IMG/VR virus record: IMGVR_UViG_3300032073_000003
Location: 55,467-119,466 of that record
Strand: one strand, 5' to 3'
DNA from: a virus
DNA: 64,000 nt
Positions within the stretch are counted from its first letter, which is position 1. Each line of letters opens with the position of its first letter. The notes under the pieces were generated by a model. That model was not told where the DNA came from. It made no database searches and saw only the letters and a list, made by a program, of their open reading frames with translations. A program made the position numbers and the translations under genes. Below, in pieces: positions 5,508 through 59,100 of the stretch.

Positions 5508-5853
5508 TTTTAAATTCTTGTCTACTTTTTAACTCTTTTTCTATTTTTACGTTTACCTTTTTTAATCGTTTTAATTTTTCCTCAATACTCTTTTTATTAT
5601 GATAAGCACCAAATGTAGAAGTATCATGGTTATCTAAAACTTTTTCATAATGGGGAATTGCATTTTTAACTTTTTTCATTTTAAGTACAAAATGACCAAG
5701 ACCTTCAACATTTAGTCTTAAATCTTCTATACTTGACATTCTTTTTTTTAATGTCTTATAATAAAAATGCACTAAATCATCTACAAGTTTTTCTGAACAT
5801 TCAAACTCATCTGTTATTTCTCTATATAAACTACTTGCTTTTTTCGGTATCAT
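5446..5853 (-). CDS. HU/IHF-like DNA-binding protein
   Basis: N-terminal helices followed by LNVEGLGHFVLK (HU-type xxGFGxF beta-turn); ATG chosen at 5853. Confidence 0.65.
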   Translation of the reverse strand: MIPKKASSLYREITDEFECSEKLVDDLVHFYYKTLKKRMSSIEDLRLNVEGLGHFVLKMKKVKNAIPHYEKVLDNHDTSTFGAYHNKKSIEEKLKRLKKVNVKIEKELKSRQEFKNEKYSKINLAKQKSNSRGDD

Positions 5854-6211
5854 TTGAAACAAGTTTATAGTCTAATAAAATTATACCTTTAGTCTGAATT
5901 TTTAAATTTGGATTAAGTGTAATAATTTTTTTATTAGATTTATCTTTAATAACTAATTTATTTTTCTCAGCTTTGTTTATACTATTTCTTACAGTTTGAG
6001 GTGATTTGAAAATCCAATCCTCTTCTGAAGATGCGTCTAAACAAAAATTACTAAGTTCTATAGGTTCATTAAAACTTAAAAGAGTTAGGCAATTTAAATC
6101 AGATTCACTCATTGTTATACGATTTATATAACAATGAGTTAGAATCTGAAATTTTACAATTTCCCATTTAGGCAACTTTACTTTTTTTTGTACTTGATTT
6201 ACAAGTGCCAT
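5831..6211 (-). CDS. Hypothetical protein (possible winged-helix)
   Basis: 126 aa ORF; SPQTVRNSINKAEKNKLV resembles a recognition helix plus wing. Confidence 0.5.
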   Translation of the reverse strand: MALVNQVQKKVKLPKWEIVKFQILTHCYINRITMSESDLNCLTLLSFNEPIELSNFCLDASSEEDWIFKSPQTVRNSINKAEKNKLVIKDKSNKKIITLNPNLKIQTKGIILLDYKLVSNDTEKSK

Positions 6212-16409: not shown

Positions 16410-16745
16410 GTGTTGATTATTGGTTAACAATTGAAGCTAAACTTTTGAACAAACTCTTAAGCTTCTTTAACATTGATTTATAATAATATACAAAAAAAAG
16501 ATGAGGATTGCAAAAGTACTACTTCTGTAGGAGGGTTATTACCCCCTCTGTGGTATCATCCATATTTCTAAACTATATATTTCAAGTTGTATACTTTAGG
16601 TTGTGGTGAGGCCTTAATAAAATGATCCCGGGGTCTGCCAACAAGTTGGTCACCCCCCTTTGTTCTACAAGATCATTTTTCATATTTGCTCATACAAATC
16701 TTTTTTTTCTGCTGGCAAAAAAACATCTGCCTGAACAAACAACAG

Positions 16746-16759
16746 CTAACCCTGAACTG
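16746..16759 (+). promoter_or_regulatory. Repeated early-promoter candidate CTAACCCTnnACTR, copy 1
   Basis: CTAACCCTgaACTG, 40 nt before the ATG at 16786. Confidence 0.6.
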
Positions 16760-16785
16760 GCATAGTAACCATTAACATTAATACT

Positions 16786-17097
16786 ATGAAATTTATCAGA
16801 GACAAATTTATAACAGATAATGTCTTTATCTGTTTACAAGAAAATGAACGCTTTGTCACATTTTATTGTGCCAAACACAAACCTTTCACCAAACCTGTTG
16901 GTTATGTTGAAAGAATGTTTGACATTCCTGAGTTTAAGAACTCGGAATTTCATACTAAAGATGCAGAGGATGAATCCTCTCACATCTGTTTTACCATATC
17001 ATATAAGTATTGGACTGGGTCCAAACTTGATGATAACGGTAAACCGTATCAAAATCTCTCAATCAAAGATTGGGATTTTATGGAAGAAGACTCTTAG
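16786..17097 (+). CDS. Early hypothetical protein
   Basis: 103 aa ORF between promoter motif and terminator. Confidence 0.7.
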   Translation: MKFIRDKFITDNVFICLQENERFVTFYCAKHKPFTKPVGYVERMFDIPEFKNSEFHTKDAEDESSHICFTISYKYWTGSKLDDNGKPYQNLSIKDWDFMEEDS

Positions 17098-17111
17098 TCT
17101 TCTTTTTTTTT
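17084..17111 (+). terminator. Intrinsic terminator
   Basis: AAGAAGAC-TCTTA-GTCTTCTT plus T run, overlapping the stop codon. Confidence 0.7.
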
Positions 17112-17145
17112 CCTTGTACAAATAACTTGATTTCCCTCTCTTTTG

Positions 17146-17159
17146 CTAACCCTTCACTG
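17146..17159 (+). promoter_or_regulatory. Early-promoter candidate, copy 2
   Basis: CTAACCCTtcACTG, 41 nt before the ATG at 17187. Confidence 0.6.
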
Positions 17160-17186
17160 ACACTGTATAACTAAAAAACAGATATT

Positions 17187-17564
17187 ATGGTACAAGAAAC
17201 TAAATGCATTAACATTGACGGCAATCAGGTAATAGACTTAACTCCTGATTATAACAGACCACTAGCACTGGTTGACTTAACAGTTCTTAATAAACTTACT
17301 GATTTACTACCTAAAGGAAACTTTACTAGTATCAGACATGGTTTAAGAGGACAAATAATGGATACTAATAACTTACAGGAACTTGTAAAGGTTGCTGAAG
17401 ACTTTGTTACATTTCACAATTCCGTAAACCTCATAAGAGAGGTAAGCTCACGTGAACTGAACACAAAGGAACAGGAAACTACAGAACCTAAAGTTATTGG
17501 TAAAATAGACCTAGGAAACTTGGACAATAATTCTTATGAAAAGAATGAATCATTTGCTCCTTGA
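17187..17564 (+). CDS. Early hypothetical protein
   Basis: 125 aa ORF in a promoter-gene-terminator cassette. Confidence 0.7.
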   Translation: MVQETKCINIDGNQVIDLTPDYNRPLALVDLTVLNKLTDLLPKGNFTSIRHGLRGQIMDTNNLQELVKVAEDFVTFHNSVNLIREVSSRELNTKEQETTEPKVIGKIDLGNLDNNSYEKNESFAP

Positions 17565-17587
17565 TTAGGATTACTAACAATTAACTG

Positions 17588-17619
17588 GAGACATGTTACT
17601 AATAAAGGTAACATGTTTC
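17588..17619 (+). terminator. Terminator-like hairpin
   Basis: GAGACATGTTAC / GTAACATGTTTC, 12-bp stem, followed by pyrimidine-rich sequence. Confidence 0.65.
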
Positions 17620-17645
17620 TTGTTTCTTATAATCCCTTTTTTTTT

Positions 17646-17659
17646 CTAACCCTCAACTA
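17646..17659 (+). promoter_or_regulatory. Early-promoter candidate, copy 3
   Basis: CTAACCCTcaACTA, 49 nt before the ATG at 17695. Confidence 0.6.
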
Positions 17660-17694
17660 GACTTGTTAACATATAAACTAATAACTTAAACATT

Positions 17695-18132
17695 ATGGCA
17701 AATTTAAAAGCTACAAGAAGTGGAAACTATGTACGTAAAGATGGTGACCACAAAGGCAAAACATTCTTTACGTATGACATAACTGGGTCTAAAGAAGACA
17801 TGAAGAAATTCACTGATTCCCCAAACTTTAAACTGTATCCAAGACACAGTGCAACTGGAGTACCACAGATACATACAATGTACATGGACCCGTTACGTAA
17901 ACAGAATCCACTGTATCAGAAACAAGATGGCAGCTTTACGTTGGACCAATCTGAGACAAGAGATGACTTGGGAGTGTTACAAGCACTGAGAGAACAGGCA
18001 CCTGAATTGGTTGCAGGTTTCACAGCCGTGGTACTGGAAAAGTCATTTGGAACACCAAAGGCTACAAGTATGCTTGCACCTGAACCTGTAACTGTAACAG
18101 GTAAAGAGGCAGACTTGACTGACGTGAGCTAG
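17695..18132 (+). CDS. Early hypothetical protein
   Basis: 145 aa ORF, relatively GC-rich for this genome. Confidence 0.75.
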   Translation: MANLKATRSGNYVRKDGDHKGKTFFTYDITGSKEDMKKFTDSPNFKLYPRHSATGVPQIHTMYMDPLRKQNPLYQKQDGSFTLDQSETRDDLGVLQALREQAPELVAGFTAVVLEKSFGTPKATSMLAPEPVTVTGKEADLTDVS

Positions 18133-18145
18133 ATTACTAGAACAA

Positions 18146-18176
18146 TAACAGGATACATATAACGTGTATCTTGTTA
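18146..18176 (+). terminator. Terminator-like hairpin
   Basis: TAACAGGATACAT / GTGTATCTTGTTA, 13-bp stem with two G-U pairs. Confidence 0.65.
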
Positions 18177-18200
18177 CTTGTTTCACAATCCTCTTTTTTT

Positions 18201-18214
18201 CTAACCCTCTACTA
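18201..18214 (+). promoter_or_regulatory. Early-promoter candidate, copy 4 (no ORF directly downstream)
   Basis: CTAACCCTctACTA; followed by a CAACAC-TAAA-GTGTTG hairpin and T run. Confidence 0.5.
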
Positions 18215-18595
18215 GAACTGTATGCAACACTAAAGTGTTGTGTTTTTTTGTAATGTGATTAGTATTAAGTATAATACTATTGTATATTGCAAAGGGTTAC
18301 AGAGTTATTTCTATAGAAGTAGTAGAGTATTGGTTACTCCATACAAATAACAAAATGTAATTCATTGATATTTAATGTTTTAGTCACATGTCTACAGTAC
18401 GTGGAGACAAATAAATTAAATACTCTAAATAATTAACAGAAAACACTAAGTTTTTAGTGTTAATGTGTGTGTTATAGTGTTATTGAGTGCTAAACTACTC
18501 CACTATCTATACTCTTGTGTAAACTTACATAAATACCTTAAAACATCTATTACTATTAATATATATAGCTAACTTATAACTAAATACAAGAAATT

Positions 18596-18820: not shown

Positions 18821-19067
18821 GAGATGTCTTTACTCCTTTCTTTAAAGACAATTAAATCTAATTACTTCATTCTAATATGCTGAATAGACCTGACTAGTCT
18901 TTAACAAGAATGATTATGTAGTTATATATATCTGTTAGGACATACCAAAAACCTTTAGCAAGTTTTGTAGTCCGTTAGCCTTATATCTTTCCTATGTTGG
19001 TAGCTTAGTGGAGAGATTATATTTATACAACTAAATTCCTACGAAGTTCTTTCTTATGTTTTACGAG

Positions 19068-19102
19068 AAAAGATTATGCAAGTAGGTGCGTAATCTTTTT
19101 TT
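19068..19102 (+). terminator. Strong (possibly bidirectional) intrinsic terminator
   Basis: AAAAGATTATGCA-AGTAGG-TGCGTAATCTTTT plus T run. Confidence 0.75.
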
Positions 19103-19117
19103 ATAAATATTTATTAT

Positions 19118-19162
19118 TCAATAGAGAAATGAGTCAAGCAATACCAATAAGCACTCTATTGA
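19118..19162 (+). ncRNA. Stem-loop D1 (putative small RNA)
   Basis: TCAATAGAG/CTCTATTGA, 9-bp perfect closing stem; the same stem closes element D2. Confidence 0.35.
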
Positions 19163-19171
19163 TATATATAT

Positions 19172-19251
19172 GCCATTAAAGCTCTTTTAAGAGTTAGATG
19201 ACACGTCTAAATAATATGACAGGGTAAGTTTGAATCTTACTAGTGGCACCA
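19172..19251 (+). tRNA. tRNA-like element with encoded CCA; anticodon arm non-canonical (pseudo-tRNA or tRNA mimic)
   Basis: Acceptor GCCATTA/TAGTGGC + A + CCA; D stem GCTC/GAGT; T arm GTAAG-TTTGAAT-CTTAC; anticodon hairpin TAGATG-ACA-CGTCTA lacks U33. Confidence 0.6.
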
Positions 19252-19304
19252 AAAAAACCAAAACATCAGTTCCTATTTAAACTATAAATAGAGAAGTTGT
19301 GTAC

Positions 19305-19367
19305 CAATAGAGTTTGAAATTACAATCAGGACAATTATACTGACCGTCCGTAATTTGGTCTCTATTG
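19305..19367 (+). ncRNA. Stem-loop D2 (putative small RNA)
   Basis: CAATAGAG/CTCTATTG outer stem, AAATTAC/GTAATTT inner stem. Confidence 0.4.
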
Positions 19368-19384
19368 TTAAGCAACATAAAACC

Positions 19385-19412
19385 AAGGAGTGTGTCTTCG
19401 GATGCACTCCTT
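19385..19412 (+). terminator. C(UUCG)G-capped hairpin; terminator or 3' stabiliser
   Basis: AAGGAGTGTGTC-TTCG-GATGCACTCCTT followed by T. Confidence 0.7.
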
Positions 19413-19440
19413 TAACATGTAACCAATAAATAACAGATAT

Positions 19441-19683
19441 ATGAATGCAAAAATGATTACATCAGAAAAAGTTAACAAAGTAATTACAATTGAAGATTGT
19501 AAAGAAATGAATTCAGTTAATTCTCAATTAATTGAATTAACTCAAACACTCTATAAAAAAGAGTTAACATTTAAACAAATTAATAAGATATGTGCTATGT
19601 CTTATTTAGATAAATTATGGTTAATAGCACAATATAAAGTTGATCTTAGAATAGATAGTTTACCGGATTTATCTAATCTATAA
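19441..19683 (+). CDS. Hypothetical protein
   Basis: 80 aa ORF. Confidence 0.6.
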   Translation: MNAKMITSEKVNKVITIEDCKEMNSVNSQLIELTQTLYKKELTFKQINKICAMSYLDKLWLIAQYKVDLRIDSLPDLSNL

Positions 19684-19686
19684 TCA

Positions 19687-19745
19687 TTACAAACATAAAA
19701 AGTTCCTATTATATAAACATAGACAAAAATACTTTTCGTTTGTAA
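19687..19745 (+). ncRNA. Structured RNA motif, copy A
   Basis: TTACAAAC/GTTTGTAA outer stem, ATA/C internal loop, AAAAGT/ACTTTT stem, apical CTAT/ATAG. Confidence 0.6.
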
Positions 19746-19751
19746 CTTTAT

Positions 19752-19813
19752 CAGAAAGACATAGAAAGTTCCTATTTAAGCTATAAATAAGAAAAATACT
19801 TTCCGTCTTTCTG
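19752..19813 (+). ncRNA. Structured RNA motif, copy B
   Basis: CAGAAAGAC/GTCTTTCTG outer stem, ATA/C internal loop, GAAAGT/ACTTTC stem, apical TATTTA/TAAATA; compensatory changes relative to copy A. Confidence 0.6.
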
Positions 19814-19925
19814 TGTTAAAATACCATTTCAACTTCCCAAGGGTTGACAGTTTTATACTGAGTATTGAGGGGCACACTTATTATACACTTATTATATATT
19901 TATTAAACACTTAAAAAACAAAAAA

Positions 19926-21716
19926 ATGAAAGAAATTAAATTGTTTGGCAAAGCACTAAACACAAAAAACGTTAGTCCAATTGAAGTAAATGAATTAGCA
20001 ACTGTAAAAGGATATGTAGTACATCCTGATTGTTGTAATGAAAGAGTAATGACATTTTTGTCATCTATTCCTAATAATTACAATACTAGTTTTTACGCGT
20101 CTGTTGCAGATGTTGTAGAAAAGGATAGAACTGAATTACTTATAGATCAGATTTTACATTATGCATCTACATATGGTACTGAATATGCAGGTCAAGTATT
20201 TGTTCCTAATGAAAACTTTGGTCTTATTGATGAACCTATAATTGATTTTAGTGATTGTAAAGTTATTGAACCTATTACTGTAGAAGAGATTACTGAAAAA
20301 ATTACTCAATTATTGTCTTCTGGTATTGCAATGAAACAAGATACATTAACTAATATTTTTGATTTGATTTCTGAATTCTTTATTGATATAAATCCTGAAG
20401 ATGTTAAGAATATTGAAGCAAAAATGATGTTATTTAATTTATTAGGTGTTTTACCTAGTAATCCTGAAGAATTTGTTAGATTGATGATATATAAATTAAC
20501 TGATTCTACTCTTGTTATTAAGAATAGACAATTAATTAATAGTATTAAACATCAACAAGATAATCAACAAATTATTGGAGTTTGTGATGATATAGAGCAA
20601 TTTGGATTAGAAAAGTTATCTTCTGTTTTCTTTAGATATAAACCAATTTTTCTTGCATTAAGAGGTTTAAGTTCTGATGCTCGTAAGATTACTAATAAAT
20701 TAAGAAAACTTGCTAATAAACATCATAAACCATTTGTTTCTGGTTATTGGGAAACTATTCTTAGTAAAGATACTTTAGAGGTTAATGAATTTCTAAAAAA
20801 ATCTAAAGACTTATCTAACTTTAAGTTAGTAAGGTTGATTAAGGCTATTGATGGAAAACTTACAGATACTGAATCTGAATTCTTTCTTATCAGAAATGGT
20901 AAAAGTTTTATTAAAGATACTACAGATAATGTAAAAAATGATAAAACTTTACTTTGGATGAAAAGTATGTTAGAAATTACTCTTATTCAAAACATTTCAG
21001 AAAAAGTTAATGGTAAAACAATAAAATTACCTGATAATATACGACTATCTATTCCTACTTCAGAGAAAACATATGTAGGTAATATACCATTTGGTAGCTA
21101 TATCATTCCTTCAAAAAGTAATTCTGTTTTTGGAATTAATTGGTTTGGGGAAGATGGAGCTCAAGATTTGGATTTATCTTACATATCTTTAACTGGTAAA
21201 AAGTATGGATGGAATGATCGTTATAGTTCAGATACAAATGATATTGTTTATTCTGGAGATATGACATCTGCTAATCCTGAAGCTTGTGAATATATGTTTT
21301 GTAAAAATGGTCTTGAAAATGGAATTATATCTGTTAATGTATATAACGGAAAAGATAATTCTAAATATAGATTTTTTATTGGTCAAACTAATAATGATTT
21401 TACTGTAAGTAGTAATACTCCAGATGAAAGCATAATAGATTTTTCTACATCATTAAAAATTACAGGTGAAGCCTGTATTGGATTTTATATAGATGGAAGA
21501 ATATATTTTGCAGATTTAAATCAAGGTTCATCTTCAGTTAGTCGTATAACACTAAATACTCAAAAAATGATTCAGTATTTTATTGATACTAAAGATTGTT
21601 TTTTGTATTGGGATAATATATTACCAATGGCAGGTGCTAATATAGTTACTGAAGGTAAATGTGATATTGATTTAAGTAATGGTGACGTTACTGAAATAAT
21701 ATCATTATTAGCATAA
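19926..21716 (+). CDS. Large protein: alpha-helical N-terminal region plus C-terminal TerD-like domain (possible divergent Ro/TROVE-TerD fusion)
   Basis: C-terminal GINW...DLDLS...GWN...YSGDMTS...ACE follows the TerD W-x-DLD...(H/Y)SGD...E pattern; N-terminal QILHYxxTYG and FRYKPIFLAL motifs. The TROVE assignment is inference only. Confidence 0.55.
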   Translation: MKEIKLFGKALNTKNVSPIEVNELATVKGYVVHPDCCNERVMTFLSSIPNNYNTSFYASVADVVEKDRTELLIDQILHYASTYGTEYAGQVFVPNENFGLIDEPIIDFSDCKVIEPITVEEITEKITQLLSSGIAMKQDTLTNIFDLISEFFIDINPEDVKNIEAKMMLFNLLGVLPSNPEEFVRLMIYKLTDSTLVIKNRQLINSIKHQQDNQQIIGVCDDIEQFGLEKLSSVFFRYKPIFLALRGLSSDARKITNKLRKLANKHHKPFVSGYWETILSKDTLEVNEFLKKSKDLSNFKLVRLIKAIDGKLTDTESEFFLIRNGKSFIKDTTDNVKNDKTLLWMKSMLEITLIQNISEKVNGKTIKLPDNIRLSIPTSEKTYVGNIPFGSYIIPSKSNSVFGINWFGEDGAQDLDLSYISLTGKKYGWNDRYSSDTNDIVYSGDMTSANPEACEYMFCKNGLENGIISVNVYNGKDNSKYRFFIGQTNNDFTVSSNTPDESIIDFSTSLKITGEACIGFYIDGRIYFADLNQGSSSVSRITLNTQKMIQYFIDTKDCFLYWDNILPMAGANIVTEGKCDIDLSNGDVTEIISLLA

Positions 21717-21723
21717 TTCTTAT

Positions 21724-21752
21724 AGGTAGGGTGTAAAAACCCTATCTTTTTT
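21724..21752 (+). terminator. Intrinsic terminator
   Basis: AGGTAGGGT/ACCCTATCT plus T run. Confidence 0.65.
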
Positions 21753-21763
21753 ATAAATTTAAT

Positions 21764-22198
21764 ATGATTACAATGAAAACAAAAGAAAAAGCAATTATTG
21801 TTGATGTAGATGGTACATTAGCAGATATGAGAGGTATCAGAGGACCTTTTGATTGGAATAAAGTTTTACTAGATAATCCTCATCAAGATGTTATTGACCT
21901 TGTTAAAGATTTAGCAAGTCTTAAAAAATATAAAATTATCATTACTACAGGTAGAGATGGTTCTTGTATGCAAGATACTGTTAAGTGGTTAGATAAATAT
22001 AAAATTCCTTTTGATGATTTTTATATGAGACCTGAAGGTGACTTTAGAAAAGATAACATTATTAAGTCTGAAATCTATATGGATTTTATCAGACCTAAAT
22101 ATGATGTTAAATTTGTAGTTGATGATAGAAATCAAGTTGTTGATATGTGGAGATCATTAGGTTTACGTGTATTACAAGTAGCACCAGGAGACTTTTAA
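21764..22198 (+). CDS. HAD-family polynucleotide 3'-phosphatase (T4 Pnk/PseT C-terminal-domain-like)
   Basis: IVDVDGTLA (DxDxT), TTGR, MRPEGDFRKD..IK, VVDDRNQVVDMWRSLGL motifs. Confidence 0.9.
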   Translation: MITMKTKEKAIIVDVDGTLADMRGIRGPFDWNKVLLDNPHQDVIDLVKDLASLKKYKIIITTGRDGSCMQDTVKWLDKYKIPFDDFYMRPEGDFRKDNIIKSEIYMDFIRPKYDVKFVVDDRNQVVDMWRSLGLRVLQVAPGDF

Positions 22199-22202
22199 TA
22201 CT

Positions 22203-22276
22203 AGGGTAGTGATTGTATACCGTGAAATTCGGAGTTATGAAATGTAGCAAACAGAAAACCTTTCACTACCCTTTTT
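22203..22276 (+). ncRNA. 10-bp inverted repeat enclosing 50 nt, then a T run (structured leader or small RNA)
   Basis: AGGGTAGTGA (22203-12) / TCACTACCCT (22263-72). Confidence 0.35.
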
Positions 22277-22291
22277 ATAAATTAATTTAAT

Positions 22292-23119
22292 ATGATTACA
22301 ATGGAAGAAGTTACAATCATAGATGGAAAAACTTTGTATAATGAAAAATATAAATTTTTATTAGAACAAGATGTAGAATATCAAAAATTGAAATTCTATA
22401 GTGGACAAATACATAGTTTTGAATATTCTAGTAAAAAAATAACAAGTACTCATATTTATTGGAGTACTTCTATTAAAACTCCAATGTTTGAAAATAACAA
22501 ATTATTTTTTAAACATAAAAATACAAGTGGAGCTTCTTATGACAGAAAAACTAAAAAAATTAAAATTTGGTTTGGACAAAGTATAAGAGACTTAAATTCT
22601 AATCTTCGAGTTGAAATATTTTGTCATCTTATTCCTTGGTTTATATCTTCAAATGATTATACAATTAGACAAAATTATATAACTATAATTACTAATGGTA
22701 TATTAAATAGAATGATAAAAGGCTCTATTAAATGTAATGAAGATATAATAAAAGCATTTTGTAAATATAATCCTTATCGTACATTTAATTTAGATACTAA
22801 AAAGTTAAATATAGTATTATCAGAAACATCTTATATAAATTTAAGACAGTTTAAATATGTATTTTTAGCTTCTGAAAATCCTAACGATGTAGTAGATTTT
22901 ATGTATAATAATAGAAACTCTACATCTCCCTCTTATATTACTGATCATATAGAAATTAGTAAATTAGCATTATCTATAGGAGAAAAAATTAATATTTACT
23001 GGAATAACACTAAATATACTAATAAACATGTTAGTTTTTTAGAACAGAAAAAAGATTTGGAAATTATTTATTCACATTTATTGAGTATAGAAAAACCAAA
23101 AGAAGATTTACCTTTTTAA
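22292..23119 (+). CDS. Hypothetical protein
   Basis: 275 aa ORF, very AT-rich. Confidence 0.7.
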   Translation: MITMEEVTIIDGKTLYNEKYKFLLEQDVEYQKLKFYSGQIHSFEYSSKKITSTHIYWSTSIKTPMFENNKLFFKHKNTSGASYDRKTKKIKIWFGQSIRDLNSNLRVEIFCHLIPWFISSNDYTIRQNYITIITNGILNRMIKGSIKCNEDIIKAFCKYNPYRTFNLDTKKLNIVLSETSYINLRQFKYVFLASENPNDVVDFMYNNRNSTSPSYITDHIEISKLALSIGEKINIYWNNTKYTNKHVSFLEQKKDLEIIYSHLLSIEKPKEDLPF

Positions 23120-48627: not shown

Positions 48628-48772
48628 AATCCCAATTTATTTGTATACTTATTATTGTAAGAAATAATTCAAATGTATGAAAAGATTCTTTTTCATCAGG
48701 TTCTAAGTAACTCCAACCTAACAAACATCTTGAATGCGGCCAGGTAATAAATATATTTACATCGTATCCCAT
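48626..48772 (-). CDS. Small hypothetical protein (48 aa, not in track)
   Basis: MGYDVNIFITWPHSRCLLGWSYLEPDEKESFHTFELFLTIISIQINWD; TAATG overlap with the giant ORF. Confidence 0.55.
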   Translation of the reverse strand: MGYDVNIFITWPHSRCLLGWSYLEPDEKESFHTFELFLTIISIQINWD

Positions 48773-51700
48773 TATCTTCCTACTCTTTGTGATTTCATCA
48801 TATTTTGCATAGTATATTCTGGATCATCAGTAGAACCTGTACGACCAAATGTTTTATATATTTTTGCCCATATCTTAAGGTCTCCTTTTTCTTTAAAGCT
48901 CATTGTACCTACATCTCTTTTGTATCTATCCATTTCAGAAAATGTTATAAAATCTAAAACATCTCCTAGTATATCTGCATAAAGAACTATAGTATTATAC
49001 CAAGCACTTGTAGTTTGAGTAATCATTTTAGTATAATCATCCATACCTAAATTAAGTCCTTTTACAGATGGTAATGGAACAAATGCAGAGGATTCAGCTT
49101 GTACACCAAGCATTAATAATAACATATGATTACTTATAAACCCATAAGTATTAAATGTATCTTGACTCAATGAACCTGATCTCTTTTTAATTTTATTCCA
49201 TTTTTCATCATCTTCTGGATCAAATCCAAATATCATCATTGCAAGTAAACTTAATCCTATTACAAATAGACCTTCTCCTGCCATTTTTCTTAATGATACT
49301 TTTTCTTCTGTAGATAAGTAAGCTGCATCTCTAGTTCCTGATTTTATTGTTTTTACCATAGCTTGAAAAGCAGTAAGATAAAATCCTTTACCATAAGATC
49401 CCGTTGCCCAATCGTATCTTTCACCACCTCTTGTCCAAGTTAACGTTTTAGAATCATAACCAAATCTATTCATAAACATTGGAGTAAACCATTTTCTCAT
49501 AAAGAAAAACATTCTGTAAATAAGTAACTTATTACCTTCAGATTGACCCATTTTATCATATGTACCAAATAATTTACGAGACGTACCTTGAATTCTATTT
49601 TTTAATCCAAGAAATTTTTCTGATTTAGCAATAATTATTTCTTGACCGTCTTCTAATTCTACAGTAGTTTTAATTCTATTTTTTGCTTTAAGTTCTTCTA
49701 CAGGTAAATAATATTTTTTAGCTATTTCTTCTAACGTTTCTCCTCTTTGATATTCATGAAATACTGGTAGATTACTCCATCCTGGATGAACTCCTGGTTT
49801 TAATCTAATAATACCTTCCGCATCTTTTTCCCAAGCTTCTTCATATCTCATTGTTTTTTTAGTACCATCAGTAAGAATTTGATCTACTTTTTGACCAAAC
49901 ATAAACGATCCAAACAATGCAACAGCAACTTGCATTTCACCAAACTTCCTATGCATATACATCCACTCAAAATTTGCTAAATCTTTTACTAAAGATCTTT
50001 CTATTTCTCTACCAAACTCATCTTTTGATTTAAATGTAGGATCAAATATTTGAATTAATTGAGTAGATTTAGAACCCGGTCCAGTTTGATAAATACCTTT
50101 AGTGCTCCATTCTAACATTGATCTTTCTGCCCAAGGTCTAGCAAGTGCAAAATCTTTAAGTGTGATAAATTCAGCTCCTATGCCTTCAAGAAGAACTTGA
50201 ACATATGCTCCATATTTGTTTTTTAAATCTGATGGAATATTCAAAGCTAAACTACCCATTGCAGATAAACCTTGTAAAGATTGCATCCATTTACCAAATA
50301 CAGGATGTGTTTCTTCAATACCTTCTACCATTCTACCATAATACTCTCGTTCAATTAAAGATTTTACTTGACCTAATCTATTATTAGTAGAAAACTTTTT
50401 CTTAGCTTTTTGCAGATTACCTTTAAGATTCCATACGTTTTTATCAAACTTTTCTAATTCTTTAGGTTCGTTAGCAGGATCTTCTAATGTCTCCAAGACA
50501 GAATTAACAAGAGGTAAGCTTTCTAAAAGTTTAGACTGAGTTTGCACGGACAATGCATACTTAAATATATTTCTAAATATATCTGCATCCGTTATTTCAT
50601 GATCTAAATTATATATACCAGATACGGGAATATAACTTATTTGATTACCATTAAGATCTGTATTTACTAAGTTATTCTTAGCATCATAATTAAAATCTAA
50701 TTCTGCATCATTAGATGACCTACTAAAAGATTGCTTAAGCCATTCTTTAGTATTTTTACCTAATTCAGAAAATCTACTACCATAAGTTCCTTTTTGCATA
50801 GCTTGCCAAATATCACCTCTTTTTGTAGAGTATCTTGGCATATCTAAATATAACTTACTATAGTTACTCATACCTTCTTGGTTTTGCAAATGATACTCTT
50901 TAATTGTTTCAAGTAACTTATACTCTGCATTATTAGAAGCTTCCATTTGAAAGTAACGGTTGTTTATAAATCTATCATCTTTAGCACTATATTTTTCTCC
51001 TGGTTTATATAGTCTTGGTAATGGTTGATTTTTATTATCTATATAAGTACCTACATAATCGGCTTTTTTAGCTCCAAATGGTATAGTTCTGTATTCATCT
51101 TTAACTTCACGTCTTGAATGTCTAATTCCAGGAGCTCCTTTTAATAAAATTGGCTCACCTGTATTTTTATCAATAATTTCTGTAAAGTTTATATAACTTT
51201 CATCTGTCGGTGTGGAAACATTATTAGCAGCTGTTCTTTTATAATATGTCTCATAAGCTTTAGTTTCTTTATTCCACTTTTGTATAGTAAAGTGATTTAA
51301 ATTAAACCATTCTGCTAATTTTTCATCTTCTTCTAATAATTCTTGAAAATCATCTGCATTTACTCTCTCCTCAACATCTTCTTCAGATATTTGTTTAACT
51401 TCAAGTCTGGATAGATTATAATTCAATGTTTCCATATAATATATAGTAGGAATCTTTTTAGTTAAAGATGATAGTTCAGATATAATCTGTTCTATTCTTG
51501 TCACATCTGATGCAGATATGCCAGATTCTTGTACTTTATCGAGTAAATAAAAATATCTATCAGACTCAGGACTTCCTTGTTCTAATCTACCAGCCGATGC
51601 TTTTTGAGATAAGTCATAAAGCTCATCAGCATTATCTTTACTAAGACCTGTTCTAGCATCTGTGCTAGATCTAAAGTCAGAAATTTCTTGTTCTAAATTT

Positions 51701-54700
51701 TTAACTTTTATTAGCTTATCATTACCCATATCAGAACTATTAGGTTCTCCAGATTGATCTTTATAAGTATAAACTAATTCTCCAATTGTTTGATAAGCTC
51801 CTGCTATATCAAATTGTTCTTTACCATCTTCTTTTATTCTTTCTTGTATTTCTCTAAGTTCTGTAAGTAACGTATTTCTTTTTTCCCAATACTCAGGATC
51901 AATATCCATTCTAAGATTTTGACGTTCCCATTTTTTCATTTCACGTTCATACTCTTCATCACCTGAAAAAATATTTTTAGTAGCTAGAAGATCTACAATC
52001 TCATTATATGCACTTTGCAATGATGCATCTACAGGTCTCCACTCATAAAAATCTCTTGTTGCTTCTCTATGTTCTTGAAGTATTTTAGCTATACTTAAAT
52101 CATAAACATTATTAGCTTCATCATCTACTTTAGGTGTGCCATCCTCATAAGTAAGAGCAAATAATTGCTGATACTCTCTATATGCTGCTTGAATAGTTGA
52201 GTATTCCTCAAATCTTTCAAGCTCATTTTCCATAGAATTTACCAAGTTATTATACGCAGCTAATTTTTGCTTTCTTACATAGTATGCTAATTTACCTACC
52301 TCAGATTGTTTAAAAATATCATCCTTTTCATAAAACTCAGGAACGAAATCCTGCCACATATAGTCTCTTTTAAAAGTATCAAACTCTAATTGTGCAGTAG
52401 CTATTTTATCTATGTCTTCAGTTTTCTTTGCTTCTTCTAAGTTATAATCTAATAAATCATAATGGTATCTATAATCTTTATGAGCCCCGTGATATGACCA
52501 TATTTTTTTCTCAATAGGTTTACCAGTTTCTTTATCTACCCAAAATACAGTATCTAAAAATCCCATCTTTTCTCTTAATTGTGCAGAGTTTAATTTACTA
52601 AATCCTACAGCAGGTAAAAGTCTTTCAAGTTTTTTTCTAAACTTCATGGATTTTTCCCATACTATATTTTCGACTTGAGACTTTTCATTTTCTATAAACA
52701 TAGCTAATGGACCTGTCACAACATCATTAGAAGAACTATAGCTTTCTAACCATCTATTAAACCAAGTTACATCTTTTGCTCCTCCAGTAAGTGCTTCAGT
52801 TATTTTATCTTTATCAATAACTAAATCTTTATACTCTTGTAAAAAGCCATCTAATATTTTTTTAGGAACTCCTTTTTTAACTAACTCATTAATATCTTCT
52901 TCTTTAAGTTCTTGAGTAGTTACTTTATAATAAAGATCGTTTACAGCTTTTTCTAATTGCTCCGGTCCAAATGCTTTTTTTAATGCAGTACCAAGATTAG
53001 TTTTTAATCTATCCTGAACATACTCTGACATATATCCTGTAATTTCAACATAAAACTGTACATCATTTGTTTTAAGTAAATTAGCAATGTTAGTATTAAC
53101 CCTAGTAATATTCTGTACTATCTCATTTAGGTTTAAATAAAATGGATTACTAGTATCCATCATTTTACCATCCATATCTAACAACCCATTTATTTCCTCT
53201 ACCATTTTTAACCAGGCTTGAGAGTTTTGTTTGTATAACATTAATAAAGCTACAGTACTTCTATTATTAATATTAGCTTTATTAATTTTAGATATATTAG
53301 ACAGCATATTTTTTAACATGCTATTAGTAGTATCCAAAGTATTTACTAATGCAGTTGCTCTTTGAAGATCTGCATCTAATGATTCTTTTGCCGCGTCTAA
53401 TGCATTTTGAATCTTTTCATTCTCATCAAATCCTTCTACTTCTGTATTAAGGTAATCTTTAAGTGTGTTAGTTACCTCTCTTAAATATCTTGTAGTTCCT
53501 TTTTGGAATAATGTTTCTTTTAACATTTTTTTAGAGACCGTGTCTCCTTTAAAATTTTCAGCCTCTGTTAAAATTTTCTTATTAGTATCATAAATTTGAT
53601 CTACAATACCCTGCATGGATTCTTTATCTGAAAACTTCTCCAGTTCTTTAGCCCTAGCTAATACATCCCTTCCAAACATTACAATATCTTCTTCCTTAAG
53701 TTTACTAGGAATATCAATCTCAACCTGTCCTTCTAAAAGTAAATCAGCTAATTCTTCTATAGAAGTATCCACATTTATTTTAGACACTTTTACTTTACTA
53801 CCAAAAATACCTCTAAGGATTTTTTTGATTGCGGCCATTACGTTTTGTATAAACTTGTCAAAACCTTCAGTATTAATCTGATCGTTCATCTTGTTTATTG
53901 CGGATAATTGTAATGCGTAATTAATTACCTCTTCTTTAAAGAAATCTGAATTTTGATCTAATTCAGGATACTGAGATTCTACATAAAATTTTATTCCTTG
54001 ACCTTCTTCAGTTCCTATAGCTTGTTTATATAGTTTCTGAAATAGAATGTTATTTTTCATTCTTAATCCTTGGAGTAATGGATGTCCGAATTCGTGTATT
54101 ACTGTTCTAGGACTTATGTTTTCACCTACTAAATAAACTGTACCTGCGTAATAGAATCCAGCTTCTCCGTTATATTTAACAGCTCTATTTTTTAATATAT
54201 CTGCTGCTTCCTCTTTATTAACATTTTGGTAATTAACATTTAATCCGAGAGCTAGTCTTTGTGATAATGCTTCAGCTAGTTGTTTTGATCTTTGATTATT
54301 GAGATCATTTACATTTATATCTACAAGAGGGGTATTTCTATACTCCCAAGCAGCCTTATCTATATCAGTATCAACACCTGGTTCTTTTACTCTAGGTGTA
54401 AATGTGTAATTTTCATCTTTATTTAAAAAGCTTTGTTCAATAAAGTAATATACATCATCTAGTAAAGAAGAATTTTTGATACCAAATAATTTAAATATTG
54501 CGTCAATTACATCTTTTAATAAACTACTTTTTTTATTATATATCCCTGGTATCTCTGAAAGAGTTTTGGCAAACATTGGATTACCAAGAGCTTCAGATAC
54601 AAATTCAAATAAATTAGATAGTCCGTACTCAGCATTTCCTGTTAATTGTCCATTATCAAAAGATATTTTACCTTCTGCATGTAAGTCTAATACTTTTTTA

Positions 54701-56193: not shown

Positions 56194-56194
56194 A

Positions 56195-59100
56195 TTATGA
56201 ACATTTAAATGGATCTTCTTCTAATTCTAATTGAATTAATATTTCTTCATCAGTGATACCTTCAGTTTCACCAATTAATTCTGCTACTTGATTATACATA
56301 GTTGAACCAGGATTAACATACTGAAATTCTTCAAATAATCTTTTGCTTAAATATACAAATAATTCTTCGGGCATGGTTTCTTTATTACCAAATCCATATT
56401 CAGGAAAAGCTATTTTTCCATTTTTTTCTTGAATTTCTTTAACTACATTAATTCTTTTTTCCCAAATAGATTTTAACAAATCATATTGACTTGATGGTAA
56501 TTCTACTTTTTTACCATTTTGTACATGACTATATAAATCTGTAGGAAAGTTTATAGACATATTTGGAGCTTCTGACATAAAATACGAAGACCCTCCTAAA
56601 ATAGTATTATTTTCTATCTGTTCAGGTCTTATTTCAAATACACTTGTATTATGTAAAAAGACTATGTCATTATTATTCTTAGTTATATTTGAATAATAAT
56701 ATGAATTTTTAGCATTTTTATCATTATATGTATAAACATTAGATTCATCAGTAAGCTTGACACCAATTCTTTTTTCTTCAACTTCAGTATCCATATTAGT
56801 AGAATCTAATTCAACTCCAGTATCTTCAACTTCACTAGTTTGATCACCTAACTCACTTCTCACTTTCATTAAGATTCTAGGAAACTCTGTACCCCATTTA
56901 CTCTTGTCTTGCGTGTGTGTAAAAGTGGCATTACCTGTAGCTAACAAACTTTGTAAAGCTTTTGGGTTTTGTTTAAAAGATTCTATTAAAATATCTTTCA
57001 TTACAGTAGATGAATCTTTATCCCATTTAACTGTTTCTAATCCAGTTATTTTTCTACCTAAAGCTTTAGCTTGAGCACCTGTAATATTTCCTCTTAATTG
57101 TTCTGTTATTTTTGTATTGTTTGTATTTGAAGGAGCATATGCGGTTTTTGTTGCTTGAAACGCTGCTTCAACTGTTTGATAAGTTTCCCCAGCTACAGTA
57201 AATGGTCTTTTAGCAAAATTACTTAACTCAGCATTTTCATTAGTTCCTGCATATATATTTATTACCTCACTAGTTTGTGGTTGAGATACTTTAGCTTTTT
57301 TAACAGTTTTAAACTCGATATCAGATATATAATCTTTATATCTCTTTCTATTAATATTGTTAGAATTATTTTGTCTAGTAAACATAGTGTAAAAATCATC
57401 TAATACTTCTTGACCATTTTTTTCAAGAGCTGAAATAAAATCTTTAGATTCATTTTCTAGTATAGATAAAAATTCAGTATAGTCAACTACATTTGTAAAG
57501 TTTAACTTTGTTTTATTTAAACCTGTTTGTAAAAAACTATAAAGATTTAAGTATTTAAACATGTTACTTATTCTTAAATTTTCAACTGGATCTTTAACTT
57601 TAGCATATCCAGGATCTGATAGCTTTTTTAGATCACTAGTATAAAGATTAGATTTATCAGTATCAAAATCTTTTTCTGCTAAGTATATATTATAAACACC
57701 ATCTTGTTTACCACCATCTAATTTTAATTTATTTAATACAGGATACGTTTTTGCTAAATCAGAATTTTGATTTATCATATTCATAAATCTAATAGCAAAT
57801 GCATTTTCATCACTTTCAAATAAATGAAATAAATTGAATGAATTATCTAATGCTTTAACAGCTATTAATTTTTCATAAGTATATCTTACTGCTTTTTCTT
57901 GTGTTAAATCAGGTAAAAGTTCTTTAGTATTTTTAAGCTCTTCTTGAAAAGATTTAGCTTTAGCATATTCTTTAGTAAGAGGGTTTAAACTTCTTATATA
58001 TTCACGTTGAGATACAAATTTTAAATACTCATTAAAATTAGTTTCTGAGTTATTCCTAAACGTTGAAGGGTGTAATGGATATAATCCACGTTCTTCATAA
58101 GAATTTTTTACATCAGAATCTTTTTCCCAAGCGTTTTTTCTAAACTCTTTTTTAAGTTGTTTCATATCCATATATAAAACACCATCTTTTACAAATGCAC
58201 CTCTATTAAGATATTTAATTAATTTAGTAGGTACTTTTGTTTCTAAATCTAGAGATAAAAAATTATTTTTATTATCATATTTTCTTATTGTATTTTGTAA
58301 TATATAACTAACAATGTCATTTCTAAATACATTACTAAACATTTCAATATTTTGACCTGGAAATAAATAATCAATATCTTTTCTTATTGCTTCTTTTCTA
58401 CCAATTAAGTAATTAGTAATTTCAGGATGAAATCTTAATTTAAATAAAGGTTTACTTATAGCAAGTACTAAAGGTCCATTAAAAAATGACTTAAGAATAG
58501 TATTACTTTTCATATTATTTACTATCTCCAACGGCACTCTAGAGTCATTTTGTAAATCAGATAGATTTGCTTCTGTTTGCTCTACATCAGATATAGTAGA
58601 TTTAGTACTTGTATCAGGATTAGATGACATTTTAAGAGCTGTATAACCACCAATTTGCTGTTCTAATTCTAAATAATGTAAAAACATTGCTTTTGCCATG
58701 TCACTTTTAGAATCATCATTTTGAATAAGAGTTAACATATCAGATTCTGTAAAGTATTTTTTAGTCTTATTTGAAAAATAATCATCATTTAATTGTTTAG
58801 ATTTTTTATATCTATCTTGATTTTTACTTCTATGGGATAATTCTTTTGATTTAAAGTTTTTACGTATAACCTCAGTAGCTGCATTATATTTAGCTAAATA
58901 TGGTGATTTTATAGTTTTACCAAGTACATCGGCATATGTTGATAAAAATAAACGTTGCTCATTTACATAGTCTCTTACTAAAGGATTTGATACAAAATAT
59001 ATTGCTTCCTTAACAGGTACTCCAGATTTAATAAGATATAATAATGTAGGTGCTACTTCATAGTTACCTTGAATAAAAAATACCCAGGCATCTTTTTCAA

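What the first reader, a model, noticed from the sequence alone, without database searches (positions are those of the whole stretch)
19118..22272. Candidate phage RNP / RNA-repair module: ncRNA cluster + TerD-fused protein + Pnk-type 3'-phosphatase
Seen, in order on the plus strand: stem-loop D1, a tRNA-like element with CCA, a partial third copy of the A/B motif, stem-loop D2, a UUCG hairpin, an 80-aa ORF, motifs A and B, a small three-way junction, the 596-aa helical + TerD-like protein, a stand-alone HAD phosphatase, and another long-range stem. Knowledge: T4 Pnk/PseT phosphatase heals 2',3'-cyclic phosphate ends of tRNA cut by anticodon nucleases. Ro60/TROVE proteins, with Y RNAs, co-occur with RNA-repair genes, and TerD domains occur fused to varied stress/conflict domains. 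Inference: the N-terminal ~370 aa are a divergent Ro/TROVE-like toroid, and the locus is an anti-ribotoxin or RNA quality-control system. No RNA ligase is visible in this window.
Basis: inference. Interest (0 to 1): 0.8.

Follow-up and report, generated by a model that had tools for sequence, protein, structure and literature searches.

The report
Phage hairpin RNAs with TerD-domain partner
Two small folded RNAs in front of an unannotated 596-residue phage gene belong to an uncatalogued RNA family that sits beside this one protein family in phages, bacteria and an archaeon, so the pair is probably an undescribed RNA-protein particle that resembles Ro60 with its Y RNAs in plan but not in parts.

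Summary
The window is part of a complete 119-kb crAss-like phage genome. Most of the listed features exist, but only some are conserved.

- The motifs are instances of a covarying hairpin: outer stem, AUA/C internal loop, 6-bp inner stem, invariant UCCUAUU.
- My covariance model finds this hairpin on the gene's strand, usually 10-150 nt upstream. It does so in 33 of 46 distinct phage loci and 53 of 58 prokaryotic loci that encode a homologue.
- In reverse, 15 of 22 model-positive stretches from a blind pattern scan carry the gene on the same contig. None of 97 model-negative stretches do.
- Long forms of the hairpin enclose a whole tRNA or a tRNA-like insert.
- No Rfam, Pfam or PHROG family covers the RNA or the protein.

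The protein's C-terminal part has a TerD fold (Z 9.6). The N-terminal helical domain is not detectably TROVE.

The Pnk-type HAD phosphatase is real, but it is adjacent in only a few lineages. The genome has no RNA ligase, kinase or tRNA. Other phages place Rnl1, a phosphoesterase-kinase fusion, a CCA-adding enzyme or RlaP beside the gene.

The scan has noted the same pair on at least eight other genomes.

The parts
19685..19747 (+). Hairpin RNA copy A: outer stem ACAAAC/GTTTGT, AUA/C internal loop, inner stem AAAAGT/ACTTTT, loop beginning UCCUAUU
   Evidence: Model R1 scores it 62.4 bits, E 3e-12. Fold z -3.1. It is a row of alignment A8, whose pairs covary.
19751..19814 (+). Hairpin RNA copy B: outer stem CAGAAAGAC/GTCTTTCTG, AUA/C internal loop, inner stem GAAAGT/ACTTTC, loop beginning UCCUAUU
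   Evidence: Best-scoring instance of model R1: 73.2 bits, E 5e-15. Fold z -5.2.
19815..19925 (+). Leader between the hairpins and the start codon. 19815-19880 is about 95% identical to relative L006. No significant fold. Role unknown.
   Evidence: Alignment with L006; fold z +0.1.
19926..21020 (+). N-terminal helical domain (residues 1-365) of the 596-aa protein. It has many invariant polar residues: H78, Y79, Y83, N162, R237, K239, N257, H267 in both alignments, plus E164, N324 and K326 in the closer set A1. The fold matches no solved structure clearly.
   Evidence: Alignments A1 and A4. AlphaFold2 pLDDT 82-86. Best structural matches are ARM/HEAT-like pieces at Z 7.0 or less. No Pfam, PHROG or NCBIfam hit.
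21111..21569 (+). TerD-fold beta-sandwich (residues 396-548) of the same protein. D414, D416, S443-G444-D445 and E455 are invariant; E452 nearly so.
   Evidence: VIA-align Z 9.6 to 2qz7_B and 8.2 to 2kxt. Foldseek probability 1.0 to 3ibz. Invariant columns.
21570..21716 (+). C-terminal helices of the 596-aa protein (residues 549-596)
   Evidence: Secondary structure of the model.
21724..21747 (+). Terminator-like hairpin plus T-run between the 596-aa gene and the phosphatase gene
   Evidence: Terminator scan; fold z -3.5.
21764..22198 (+). Stand-alone Pnk-type HAD 3'-phosphatase with no kinase domain. It is a lineage-specific neighbour, not a conserved part of the pair.
   Evidence: PF25109 E 5e-49. 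It matches only positions 158-295 of phrog_505. Adjacent to the partner gene only in L006, L014/L016 and L230.
22203..22275 (+). Long stem (10 bp) enclosing two small hairpins, followed by UUUU. Probably the terminator of the phosphatase gene.
   Evidence: Fold z -3.3. Conservation not tested.
19268..19290 (+). Partial copy of the 5' half of the motif (AGTTCCTATTTAAACTATAAATA). It has no 3' partner and the model does not score it.
   Evidence: CAGTTCCTA is kept in L006.
19441..19683 (+). 80-aa ORF directly upstream of the hairpins. A homologue is found only in L006 (57% identity). Function unknown.
   Evidence: No family hit.

Best explanation
The conserved unit is a two-part module: one or more copies of a small structured RNA, plus a roughly 600-residue protein made of a novel helical domain and a TerD-fold domain.

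The RNA has a closing stem, an asymmetric AUA/C internal loop, a 6-bp stem, an invariant single-stranded UCCUAUU and a conserved U-AC on the return strand. Its apical part is free to vary, from about 20 A-rich nucleotides up to a complete tRNA.

I infer that the protein recognises this invariant 'handle'. It would then form a ribonucleoprotein in which the variable apical part, in some phages a tRNA or tRNA mimic, is presented or sequestered. That is the plan of Ro60 with Y RNAs (YrlA), built from unrelated parts.

In this crAss-like phage, two short hairpins are probably co-transcribed with the gene in the early/replication arm. In phages the module is recruited to tRNA arrays and RNA end-healing or end-sealing genes, so its likely field of action is tRNA/RNA damage control or tRNA handling during infection. 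The neighbouring Pnk-type 3'-phosphatase is an optional accessory.

Shown: the RNA structure, the RNA-gene linkage and the domain folds. Inferred: binding, particle formation and the biological role.
For: 1. RNA structure.
- In a MAFFT alignment of 24 instances the inner helix is 100% paired, and 4 of its 6 pairs change on both sides. The covariation score is 0.587 against 0.243 in shuffles (0 of 500 reach it). Slid controls pair in 37-47% of cells against 84% observed.
- In 83 model-aligned instances all 15 pairs show double changes and the inner helix is 99% paired.
- UCCU and the bulged C are 100% invariant.

2. Linkage from gene to RNA.
- 63 hits at E<0.01 in 666 kb, nearly all on the gene's strand. 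33 of 46 dereplicated phage loci, and the window, have a copy within 600 nt of the gene, in 1-6 tandem copies.
- 53 of 58 loci from prokaryotic genomes also have one. These include a Methanobacterium MAG and Ktedonobacter racemifer DSM 44963.

3. Linkage from RNA to gene.
- A blind scan with a 14-base pattern gave 119 stretches, of which 22 are model-positive.
- Of those 22, 11 carry the gene in the stretch and 4 more carry it on the same contig.
- None of the 97 model-negative stretches carries it.

4. The RNAs are not only leaders of the gene.
- Copies lie downstream of the gene (L009; L044 with 5 copies; S-CRM01 3 nt after the stop codon).
- Copies also lie far from the gene, inside tRNA arrays on the tRNA strand (L015, L021, L127, L159).
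- Long forms enclose a tRNA. L127 3600-3725 wraps tRNA-Leu with an encoded CCA. L043 5822-5886 scores 42.6 bits with the Rfam tRNA model, inside copy 5789-5908.

5. Phage gene context.
- The next gene downstream is Rnl1 (L038, L043), a Metallophos+AAA_33 fusion (L027, L033), a CCA-adding enzyme (L053), RlaP (L058), a DNA ligase (L050) or HAD_PNKP (window, L006, L016).
- Within three genes on either side: RlaP in 4 loci, and Rnl2.
- The gene sits inside tRNA arrays in the cultured phages S-CRM01 and S-CBWM1.

6. Protein.
- The model is confident (pLDDT 85.7). It shows a TerD fold at Z 9.6 and a helical domain with many invariant basic and polar residues.
Against: - No experiment shows binding; co-location is the only link between the RNA and the protein.
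- In many loci the nearest hairpin ends only 9-40 nt before the start codon. That also fits a cis-acting leader.
- In cellular genomes the neighbours are housekeeping genes and no RNA-repair family is among the 25 most frequent. The tRNA/repair role may therefore be phage-specific, or wrong.
- This phage has no tRNA, no RNA ligase and no polynucleotide kinase.
- The helical domain has no recognised RNA-binding fold.
- My first set of instances was partly chosen for inner-stem complementarity, which inflates the pairing in A8. The five rows added by sequence alone, and the 59 further model hits, pair equally well.
Confidence: 0.6

Rival explanations
1. The hairpins are purely cis-regulatory leader elements of the gene. 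They could be an autoregulatory operator bound by the protein, or a ligand- or tRNA-sensing switch. They would control its translation or transcription and have no life as separate RNAs.
For: They are on the same strand as the gene and mostly upstream. In more than 20 loci the nearest copy ends 9-40 nt before the ATG. In the window no terminator is predicted between hairpin B and the gene.
Against: Some copies lie downstream of the gene (L009, L044 with 5 copies, L217, L219, S-CRM01). Some lie tens to hundreds of kb away inside tRNA arrays (L127, L068, L159, L165). Up to six occur in tandem, and some inserts are whole tRNAs.
Confidence: 0.17
2. The motif is a leader-trailer module of special precursor tRNAs, with short 'empty' derivatives. 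The protein would be an enzyme that processes, modifies or protects these precursors. It would be a tRNA maturation factor rather than a Ro-like particle.
For: In the long forms, UCCUAUU lies 3 nt before the 5' end of a complete tRNA, and the return strand follows its CCA. The gene lies in tRNA arrays. The helical domain has many invariant His, Tyr, Asn, Arg and Lys residues, as an active site might.
Against: About 75 of 83 instances are short forms without any tRNA. The window's phage and most Bacteroidales loci have the pair but no tRNA in the hairpin. No nuclease or transferase fold is detected.
Confidence: 0.13
3. One reading: the protein is a divergent Ro60/TROVE ring fused to TerD, and it forms an RNA-repair operon with the upstream tRNA-like element and the Pnk-type phosphatase.
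For: The plan is helical domain plus C-terminal metal-binding-type domain plus adjacent ncRNAs. Phage Ro60 9l5y_B gives the longest single alignment to the N-domain: 127 residues, Z 5.3. The HAD is of Pnk type.
Against: The TROVE HMM finds nothing in the genome. Z 5.3 is within the noise for helical repeats. The Ro-binding motifs of Y RNAs (GNCGAAN0-1G, GGUCCGA; PMC4201824) are absent, and Rfam gives no Y RNA hit. The tRNA-like element is not conserved. HAD adjacency is rare. The genome has no ligase.
Confidence: 0.05
4. The locus is a Ter-type stress or exclusion module. TerD would sense a nucleoside-like signal or Ca2+, and the HAD phosphatase would help make that signal, as in bacterial ter operons. 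The hairpins would be incidental.
For: Ter systems combine TerD with HAD phosphoesterases, and they occur in jumbo phages (PMC7824862, section 3.4.10). The TerD fold is confirmed.
Against: No TerB, TerC, TelA, PRTase or vWA partner was seen in the neighbour tallies. The HAD is the Pnk subtype and is rarely adjacent. This reading does not explain the near-universal RNA linkage.
Confidence: 0.03

Closest known systems
Ro60 (Rsr; TROVE + vWA) with Y RNAs, especially bacterial and phage YrlA/YrlB (Chen et al. 2014, PMC4201824; phage Ro60 structure PMC12135203, PDB 9l5y)
   Same: - A protein of about 550-600 aa with an N-terminal helical domain and a C-terminal metal-binding-type domain.
- It is encoded next to 1-6 tandem small RNAs.
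- Each RNA has a closing stem carrying a conserved asymmetric loop and an apical part that can mimic tRNA.
- It occurs in phages and bacteria, and in phages beside RNA ligases and end-healing enzymes.
   Different: - No TROVE sequence match and no clear ring-fold match (Z 5.3).
- A TerD beta-sandwich stands in place of vWA.
- The RNA handle (GC-AUA-stem-UCCUAUU...U-AC-stem-C-GC) differs from the Ro-binding motifs, and no Rfam model finds it.
- Some long forms hold a complete tRNA, not only a mimic.
TerD/TerZ/TerE tellurite-resistance proteins (PF02342; PDB 2qz7, 2kxt, 3ibz)
   Same: Residues 396-548 have the same beta-sandwich fold: Z 9.6, rmsd 2.9 over 134 residues. Acidic and Ser-Gly-Asp positions are invariant. 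From my memory of the TerD Ca2+ sites, not checked here, these lie where Ca2+ binds.
   Different: The Pfam TerD HMM does not match at E<=0.01. The domain is fused to a 365-residue helical domain. There is no ter operon context.
T4 PseT/Pnk and the phage heal-and-seal tRNA repair pathway (Pnk + Rnl1/Rnl2)
   Same: The neighbouring 144-aa gene is the Pnk phosphatase domain (PF25109, DxDxT intact). In other phages the partner protein sits next to Rnl1, Rnl2, a phosphoesterase-kinase fusion, RlaP or a CCA-adding enzyme.
   Different: In this genome there is no kinase domain and no RNA ligase, so a complete repair pathway is not encoded. The adjacency is not conserved.
MXAN_6230/SCO0854 family RING-domain proteins of Actinomycetota (Prok-RING_4)
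   Same: The ESM Atlas structure search aligns 519 residues at TM 0.66, normalised by the query. This suggests the same helical + TerD-like body.
   Different: Those proteins are about 990 aa and carry a RING finger that is missing here. I made no sequence-level test. My search for longer relatives found none.

Membership tests
Ro60/TROVE | Match to the TROVE profile (Pfam PF05731) | tested here: not met
   No Pfam family for the ORF at E<=0.01. PF05731 against all six frames of the complete genome gave no match at E<=0.01, while two control genomes rang.
Ro60/TROVE | Closed ring of HEAT-like repeats | tested here: inconclusive
   N-domain model alone (pLDDT 82): phage Ro60 9l5y_B reaches rank 44, Z 5.3, rmsd 4.2 over 127 aligned residues. 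The best rows are ARM/HEAT pieces at Z 7.0, all within the noise for helical proteins.
Ro60/TROVE | C-terminal vWA domain with MIDAS site | tested here: not met
   The C-terminal domain is a TerD-fold beta-sandwich (Z 9.6).
Y RNA / YrlA | Ro-binding motif (GNCGAAN0-1G or GGUCCGA) and a match to the Rfam Y RNA models | tested here: not met
   The handle consensus is GC-AUA-RNNNGU-UCCUAUU. cmscan at E<=1 or E<=0.5 gives no Y RNA hit in the window region or in five related loci. The motifs are taken from PMC4201824.
Y RNA / YrlA | Encoded next to its protein partner; closing stem plus tRNA-like apical domain | tested here: met
   This is met as an analogy of plan, with a different protein.
TerD (PF02342) | TerD beta-sandwich fold | tested here: met
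   2qz7_B Z 9.6, rmsd 2.9, 134 residues. 2kxt Z 8.2. 3ibz Foldseek probability 1.0.
TerD (PF02342) | Match to the Pfam TerD profile | tested here: not met
   No Pfam hit at E<=0.01.
TerD (PF02342) | Ca2+-binding acidic motifs | tested here: inconclusive
   D414, D416, S443, G444, D445 and E455 are invariant and E452 is nearly invariant. I did not check residue by residue that they correspond to the TerD Ca2+ sites.
T4 Pnk-type HAD phosphatase (for ORF 21764-22198) | HAD_PNKP profile match and the DxDxT nucleophile motif | tested here: met
   PF25109 E 5.4e-49, covering profile positions 2-143 of 143. 'VDVDGT' at residues 13-18, and 'VVDDR'.
T4 Pnk (bifunctional) | N-terminal P-loop 5'-kinase domain | tested here: not met
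   It matches only positions 158-295 of phrog_505. There is no AAA_33 match anywhere in the genome.
tRNA (for 19172-19251) | Recognised by ARAGORN or the Rfam tRNA model | tested here: not met

The most novel reading that the evidence does not exclude
This RNA-protein pair is a widespread, previously undescribed ribonucleoprotein system of phages, bacteria and archaea. It would be a functional counterpart of Ro60/Y RNA that arose independently. Its conserved RNA 'handle' would dock a TerD-domain protein, and its exchangeable apical module (a hairpin, a tRNA mimic or a real tRNA) would determine what the particle acts on. Phages would use it in the conflict over tRNA integrity.
Probability: 0.45. 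Interest if true: 0.88.

Novelty: categorically new. Interest (0 to 1): 0.82.

Why it matters
If the protein does bind these RNAs, this is a new ribonucleoprotein family. The protein family alone spans about 1,300 clusters at 50% identity. It occurs in crAss-like phages, jumbo phages and cyanophages, in gut Bacteroidales and Fibrobacter, and in at least one archaeal MAG.

It would be a second, independent solution to the Ro60/Y-RNA design. It would also give a function to one of the commonest 'hypothetical proteins' inside phage tRNA arrays, and assign a first nucleic-acid-related role to a TerD domain.

The long forms that wrap whole tRNAs suggest a way of presenting, protecting or gating tRNAs. 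That bears on how phages cope with host anticodon nucleases.

The pair is present in cultured phages (S-CRM01 g174, S-CBWM1 gp22), so it can be tested directly.

Tried and rejected
- **Family searches.** Pfam, PHROGs and NCBIfam on the 596-aa ORF gave no hit. Sequence and profile searches against PDB chains gave nothing meaningful.
- **N-domain fold searches.** Foldseek on PDB gave no match at E<=0.001. VIA-align against 48,161 chains gave only helical-repeat pieces at Z 7.0 or less. I therefore cannot name the fold. Absence of Ro60 among the top rows is not proof of a different fold.
- **N-domain profile search.** The profile against 1.84 billion representatives returned only the close family in the 150 rows shown, so the remote tail (TROVE or not) could not be inspected.
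- **Longer fused forms.** None found, which is weak evidence.
- **HAD linkage.** I tested the phosphatase as a conserved partner and rejected it: 2 of 59 phage loci, plus L230.
- **tRNA-like element 19172-19251.** ARAGORN and Rfam reject it, and it is not alignable in L006.
- **The hairpin as an intrinsic terminator.** Rejected: the loop is 30 nt or more, and the U-rich 3' side is itself paired.
- **A DNA-level element.** Unlikely: the orientation is strictly strand-specific and G-U pairs are kept.
- **A known ribozyme or RAGATH motif.** No Rfam hit overlaps it.
- **A first search pattern** (GTTCCTATTWWANMYATA) was too strict and found nothing.
- **Conserved block 18821-19106.** RNAalifold on four sequences gave no convincing structure.
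- **Closed or unavailable sources.** The Burroughs & Aravind 2016 RNA-repair survey is not held in the library, so I could not check whether it mentions this protein.

Full report
**Setting.** The window is bases 55467-119466 of a complete 119,466-bp virus record with direct terminal repeats. The terminase and the replication genes identify a distant crAss-like phage. The finding lies at the start of the plus-strand early/replication arm, downstream of four promoter-like CTAACCCTnnACT repeats. The whole genome has no tRNA gene and no Rfam family at gathering threshold.

**The observation.** The ORFs are as described.
- The 144-aa ORF is a Pnk-type HAD phosphatase: PF25109, E 5e-49, with DxDxT intact. 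It matches only the C-terminal half of the bifunctional kinase-phosphatase family phrog_505.
- The 596-aa ORF has no Pfam, PHROG or NCBIfam match.
- Of the RNA elements listed, hairpins A and B, the UUCG hairpin and the stem after the phosphatase gene fold far better than shuffles. D1, D2 and the 'three-way junction' do not.
- The 'tRNA-like element with CCA' folds as a cloverleaf (z -2.2). ARAGORN and Rfam reject it, and it cannot be aligned with the nearest relative.

**The protein.** An AlphaFold2 model built on 31 homologues is confident: pLDDT 85.7, pTM 0.81.
- Residues 396-548 are a TerD-fold sandwich: VIA-align Z 9.6 to 2qz7_B and 8.2 to 2kxt; Foldseek probability 1.0 to 3ibz.
- Residues 1-365 are helical. 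I folded this domain alone on 40 sequences (pLDDT 82). It matches only ARM/HEAT-like fragments at Z 7.0 or less. Ro60 of Thermus phage phiLo comes at rank 44 with Z 5.3.
- The TROVE profile finds nothing in the genome.
The TROVE part is not supported by sequence and is inconclusive by fold.
- The family is large, at 1,332 clusters at 50% identity, and nearly all members are unnamed.
- BFVD holds full-length look-alikes in Campylobacter and Lactobacillus phages. The ESM Atlas points to a structural resemblance (TM 0.66) with actinobacterial MXAN_6230/SCO0854 RING proteins.

**The phosphatase is not a conserved partner.** Among 59 phage loci that encode a homologue, a HAD_PNKP gene follows only in L006 and L014/L016, and in one Campylobacteraceae MAG contig. 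A terminator-like hairpin separates the two genes in the window. The complete genome lacks Rnl1, Rnl2, RtcB and a P-loop kinase.

Even so, other lineages put other nucleic-acid end-processing genes in the same place.
- Rnl1 in L038, L042/L043 and L017.
- A calcineurin-like phosphoesterase fused to an AAA_33 kinase in L027 and L033-L035.
- A CCA-adding enzyme in L053, RlaP in L058 and three further loci, Rnl2 once, and a DNA ligase in L050.
- The gene is also embedded in tRNA arrays in many phages. These include the cultured cyanophages S-CRM01 (g174) and S-CBWM1 (gp22), where it is annotated 'hypothetical protein'.

I did not compute a genome-wide background, so this association is qualitative.

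**The decisive result is the RNA.** In every case a 3' segment was complementary to the four variable bases before it.
- A MAFFT alignment of 24 short instances gives this structure: an outer stem, an AUA/C internal loop closed by G-C and C-G pairs, a 6-bp inner stem, then UCCUAUU, an A-rich variable loop and U before the return strand.
- The inner helix is 100% paired and four of its six pairs change on both sides. The covariation score is 0.587 against 0.243 in shuffles (0 of 500 reach it). Sliding the partner columns drops pairing from 84% to 37-47%.
- A covariance model built from this alignment finds 63 hits at E<0.01 in 666 kb. Nearly all are on the gene's strand. 33 of 46 dereplicated phage loci plus the window have a copy within 600 nt of the gene, as 1-6 tandem copies.
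- On 83 model-aligned instances all 15 pairs show compensatory changes and the inner helix is 99% paired. UCCU and the bulged C are invariant.
- In 58 loci from prokaryotic genomes, 53 have the hairpin, again on the gene's strand and mostly 20-150 nt upstream. The loci come from Bacteroidales, Fibrobacter, Muribaculaceae, Saccharibacteria, a Methanobacterium MAG and Ktedonobacter racemifer. Their neighbours are ordinary chromosomal genes. The conserved unit is therefore the RNA plus the protein, nothing else.

**The reverse test.** A blind scan of IMG/VR with GCATANNNNGTTCCTATT gave 119 stretches, and 22 of them are model-positive.
- 11 of the 22 carry the gene in the stretch.
- 4 more carry it elsewhere on the same contig.
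- 5 are on fragments that are 4-46% complete and lack it.
- 2 were not checked.
- None of the 97 model-negative stretches has the gene.

**Separate RNAs or a leader?** Many proximal copies end 9-40 nt before the start codon, which would suit an operator. Several facts argue against a purely cis role.
- Copies lie downstream of the gene: L009, five in L044, and 3 nt after the stop codon in S-CRM01.
- Copies lie far away inside tRNA arrays on the tRNA strand: L015, L021, L127, L159 and L165.
- About one instance in ten carries a large insert. In L127 3600-3725 the handle encloses a complete tRNA-Leu with encoded CCA, and UCCUAUU lies 3 nt before its 5' end. In L043 the insert scores 42.6 bits with the Rfam tRNA model. 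Others carry T-arm-like GGTTCGAATCC hairpins.

This modular plan, a conserved closing 'handle' with an exchangeable and often tRNA-like apical part, encoded in tandem next to a helical-plus-metal-domain protein and sometimes next to RNA ligases, is the plan of Ro60 with YrlA/YrlB (PMC4201824). The handle sequence differs from the Ro-binding motifs, and no Rfam model detects it.

**Conclusion.** The locus contains a member of an uncatalogued RNA-protein pair.
- I commit to the reading that the protein binds the handle and forms a particle that acts on, or with, tRNA-like RNAs. In phages it would be deployed with tRNA arrays and repair enzymes (confidence about 0.6 for the partnership, lower for the role).
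- The Pnk-type phosphatase is a lineage-specific accessory. In a genome with no ligase or kinase it may equally serve nucleotide or DNA-end metabolism.
- The tRNA-like element, D1, D2 and the UUCG hairpin are not supported as parts of the system.
- Nothing in the held literature links TerD to RNA ligases or tRNA arrays in this way.

**Earlier notes of this scan.** After I reached this reading, I found that the scan holds at least eight earlier reports of the same pair on other genomes. They agree with it, but they are not independent evidence.

Noticed in passing
window 18821-19106: A non-coding block of about 280 nt is 95-100% identical to the relative L006/L061, although the flanking proteins are only 57-81% identical. 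Its 25-mer TTTCCTATGTTGGTAGCTTAGTGGA is also exact in two other viral contigs (L060, L062) that show no partner gene in the fetched stretch. The block ends in a hairpin plus T-run (19071-19106). It is probably another ncRNA. Four sequences gave no convincing consensus fold.
   Followed up: partly
window 16745-18222: Four copies of CTAACCCTnnACT, each preceded by a hairpin plus T/C-rich run and three of them 40-49 nt before consecutive small ORFs. They occur nowhere else in the 119-kb genome apart from one 1-mismatch copy (C1:25488). They are candidate early promoters. The fourth (18201) is followed at once by a terminator-like hairpin at 18222-18243.
   Followed up: partly
window 21753-21778 and 22281-22306: A 26-nt repeat, 92% identical, covers the ribosome-binding region and the first codons of the phosphatase gene and of the next ORF (275 aa). 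Both proteins begin MITM.
   Followed up: no
L127:3600-3725; L129:4422-4548(-); L150:615-740; L043:5789-5908: Long forms of the hairpin enclose a complete tRNA or a tRNA-like gene. The conserved UCCUAUU acts as 5' leader, and the return strand follows the 3' end.
   Followed up: partly
L044:189-259: RAGATH-1 hammerhead ribozyme match at 56.1 bits (gathering score 56.3). It is in a phage that also carries five tandem hairpins downstream of the partner gene.
   Followed up: no
L027:9143-10246, L033:9089-10189; A3 tally: In jumbo-phage loci the module lies beside an NMN-adenylyltransferase-Nudix fusion. Microbial PARG genes appear upstream in three loci. This hints at NAD/ADP-ribose counter-defence genes in the same neighbourhood.
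   Followed up: no
L230:6822-7142: A Campylobacteraceae MAG contig has a homologue of the window's HAD phosphatase (E 4e-36) directly downstream of the partner gene. This is a third, distant lineage with that adjacency.
   Followed up: no
window 48772-63661 (-): Two adjacent ORFs of 2473 and 2488 aa. They were not examined. crAss-like phages carry giant virion proteins in this range.
   Followed up: no
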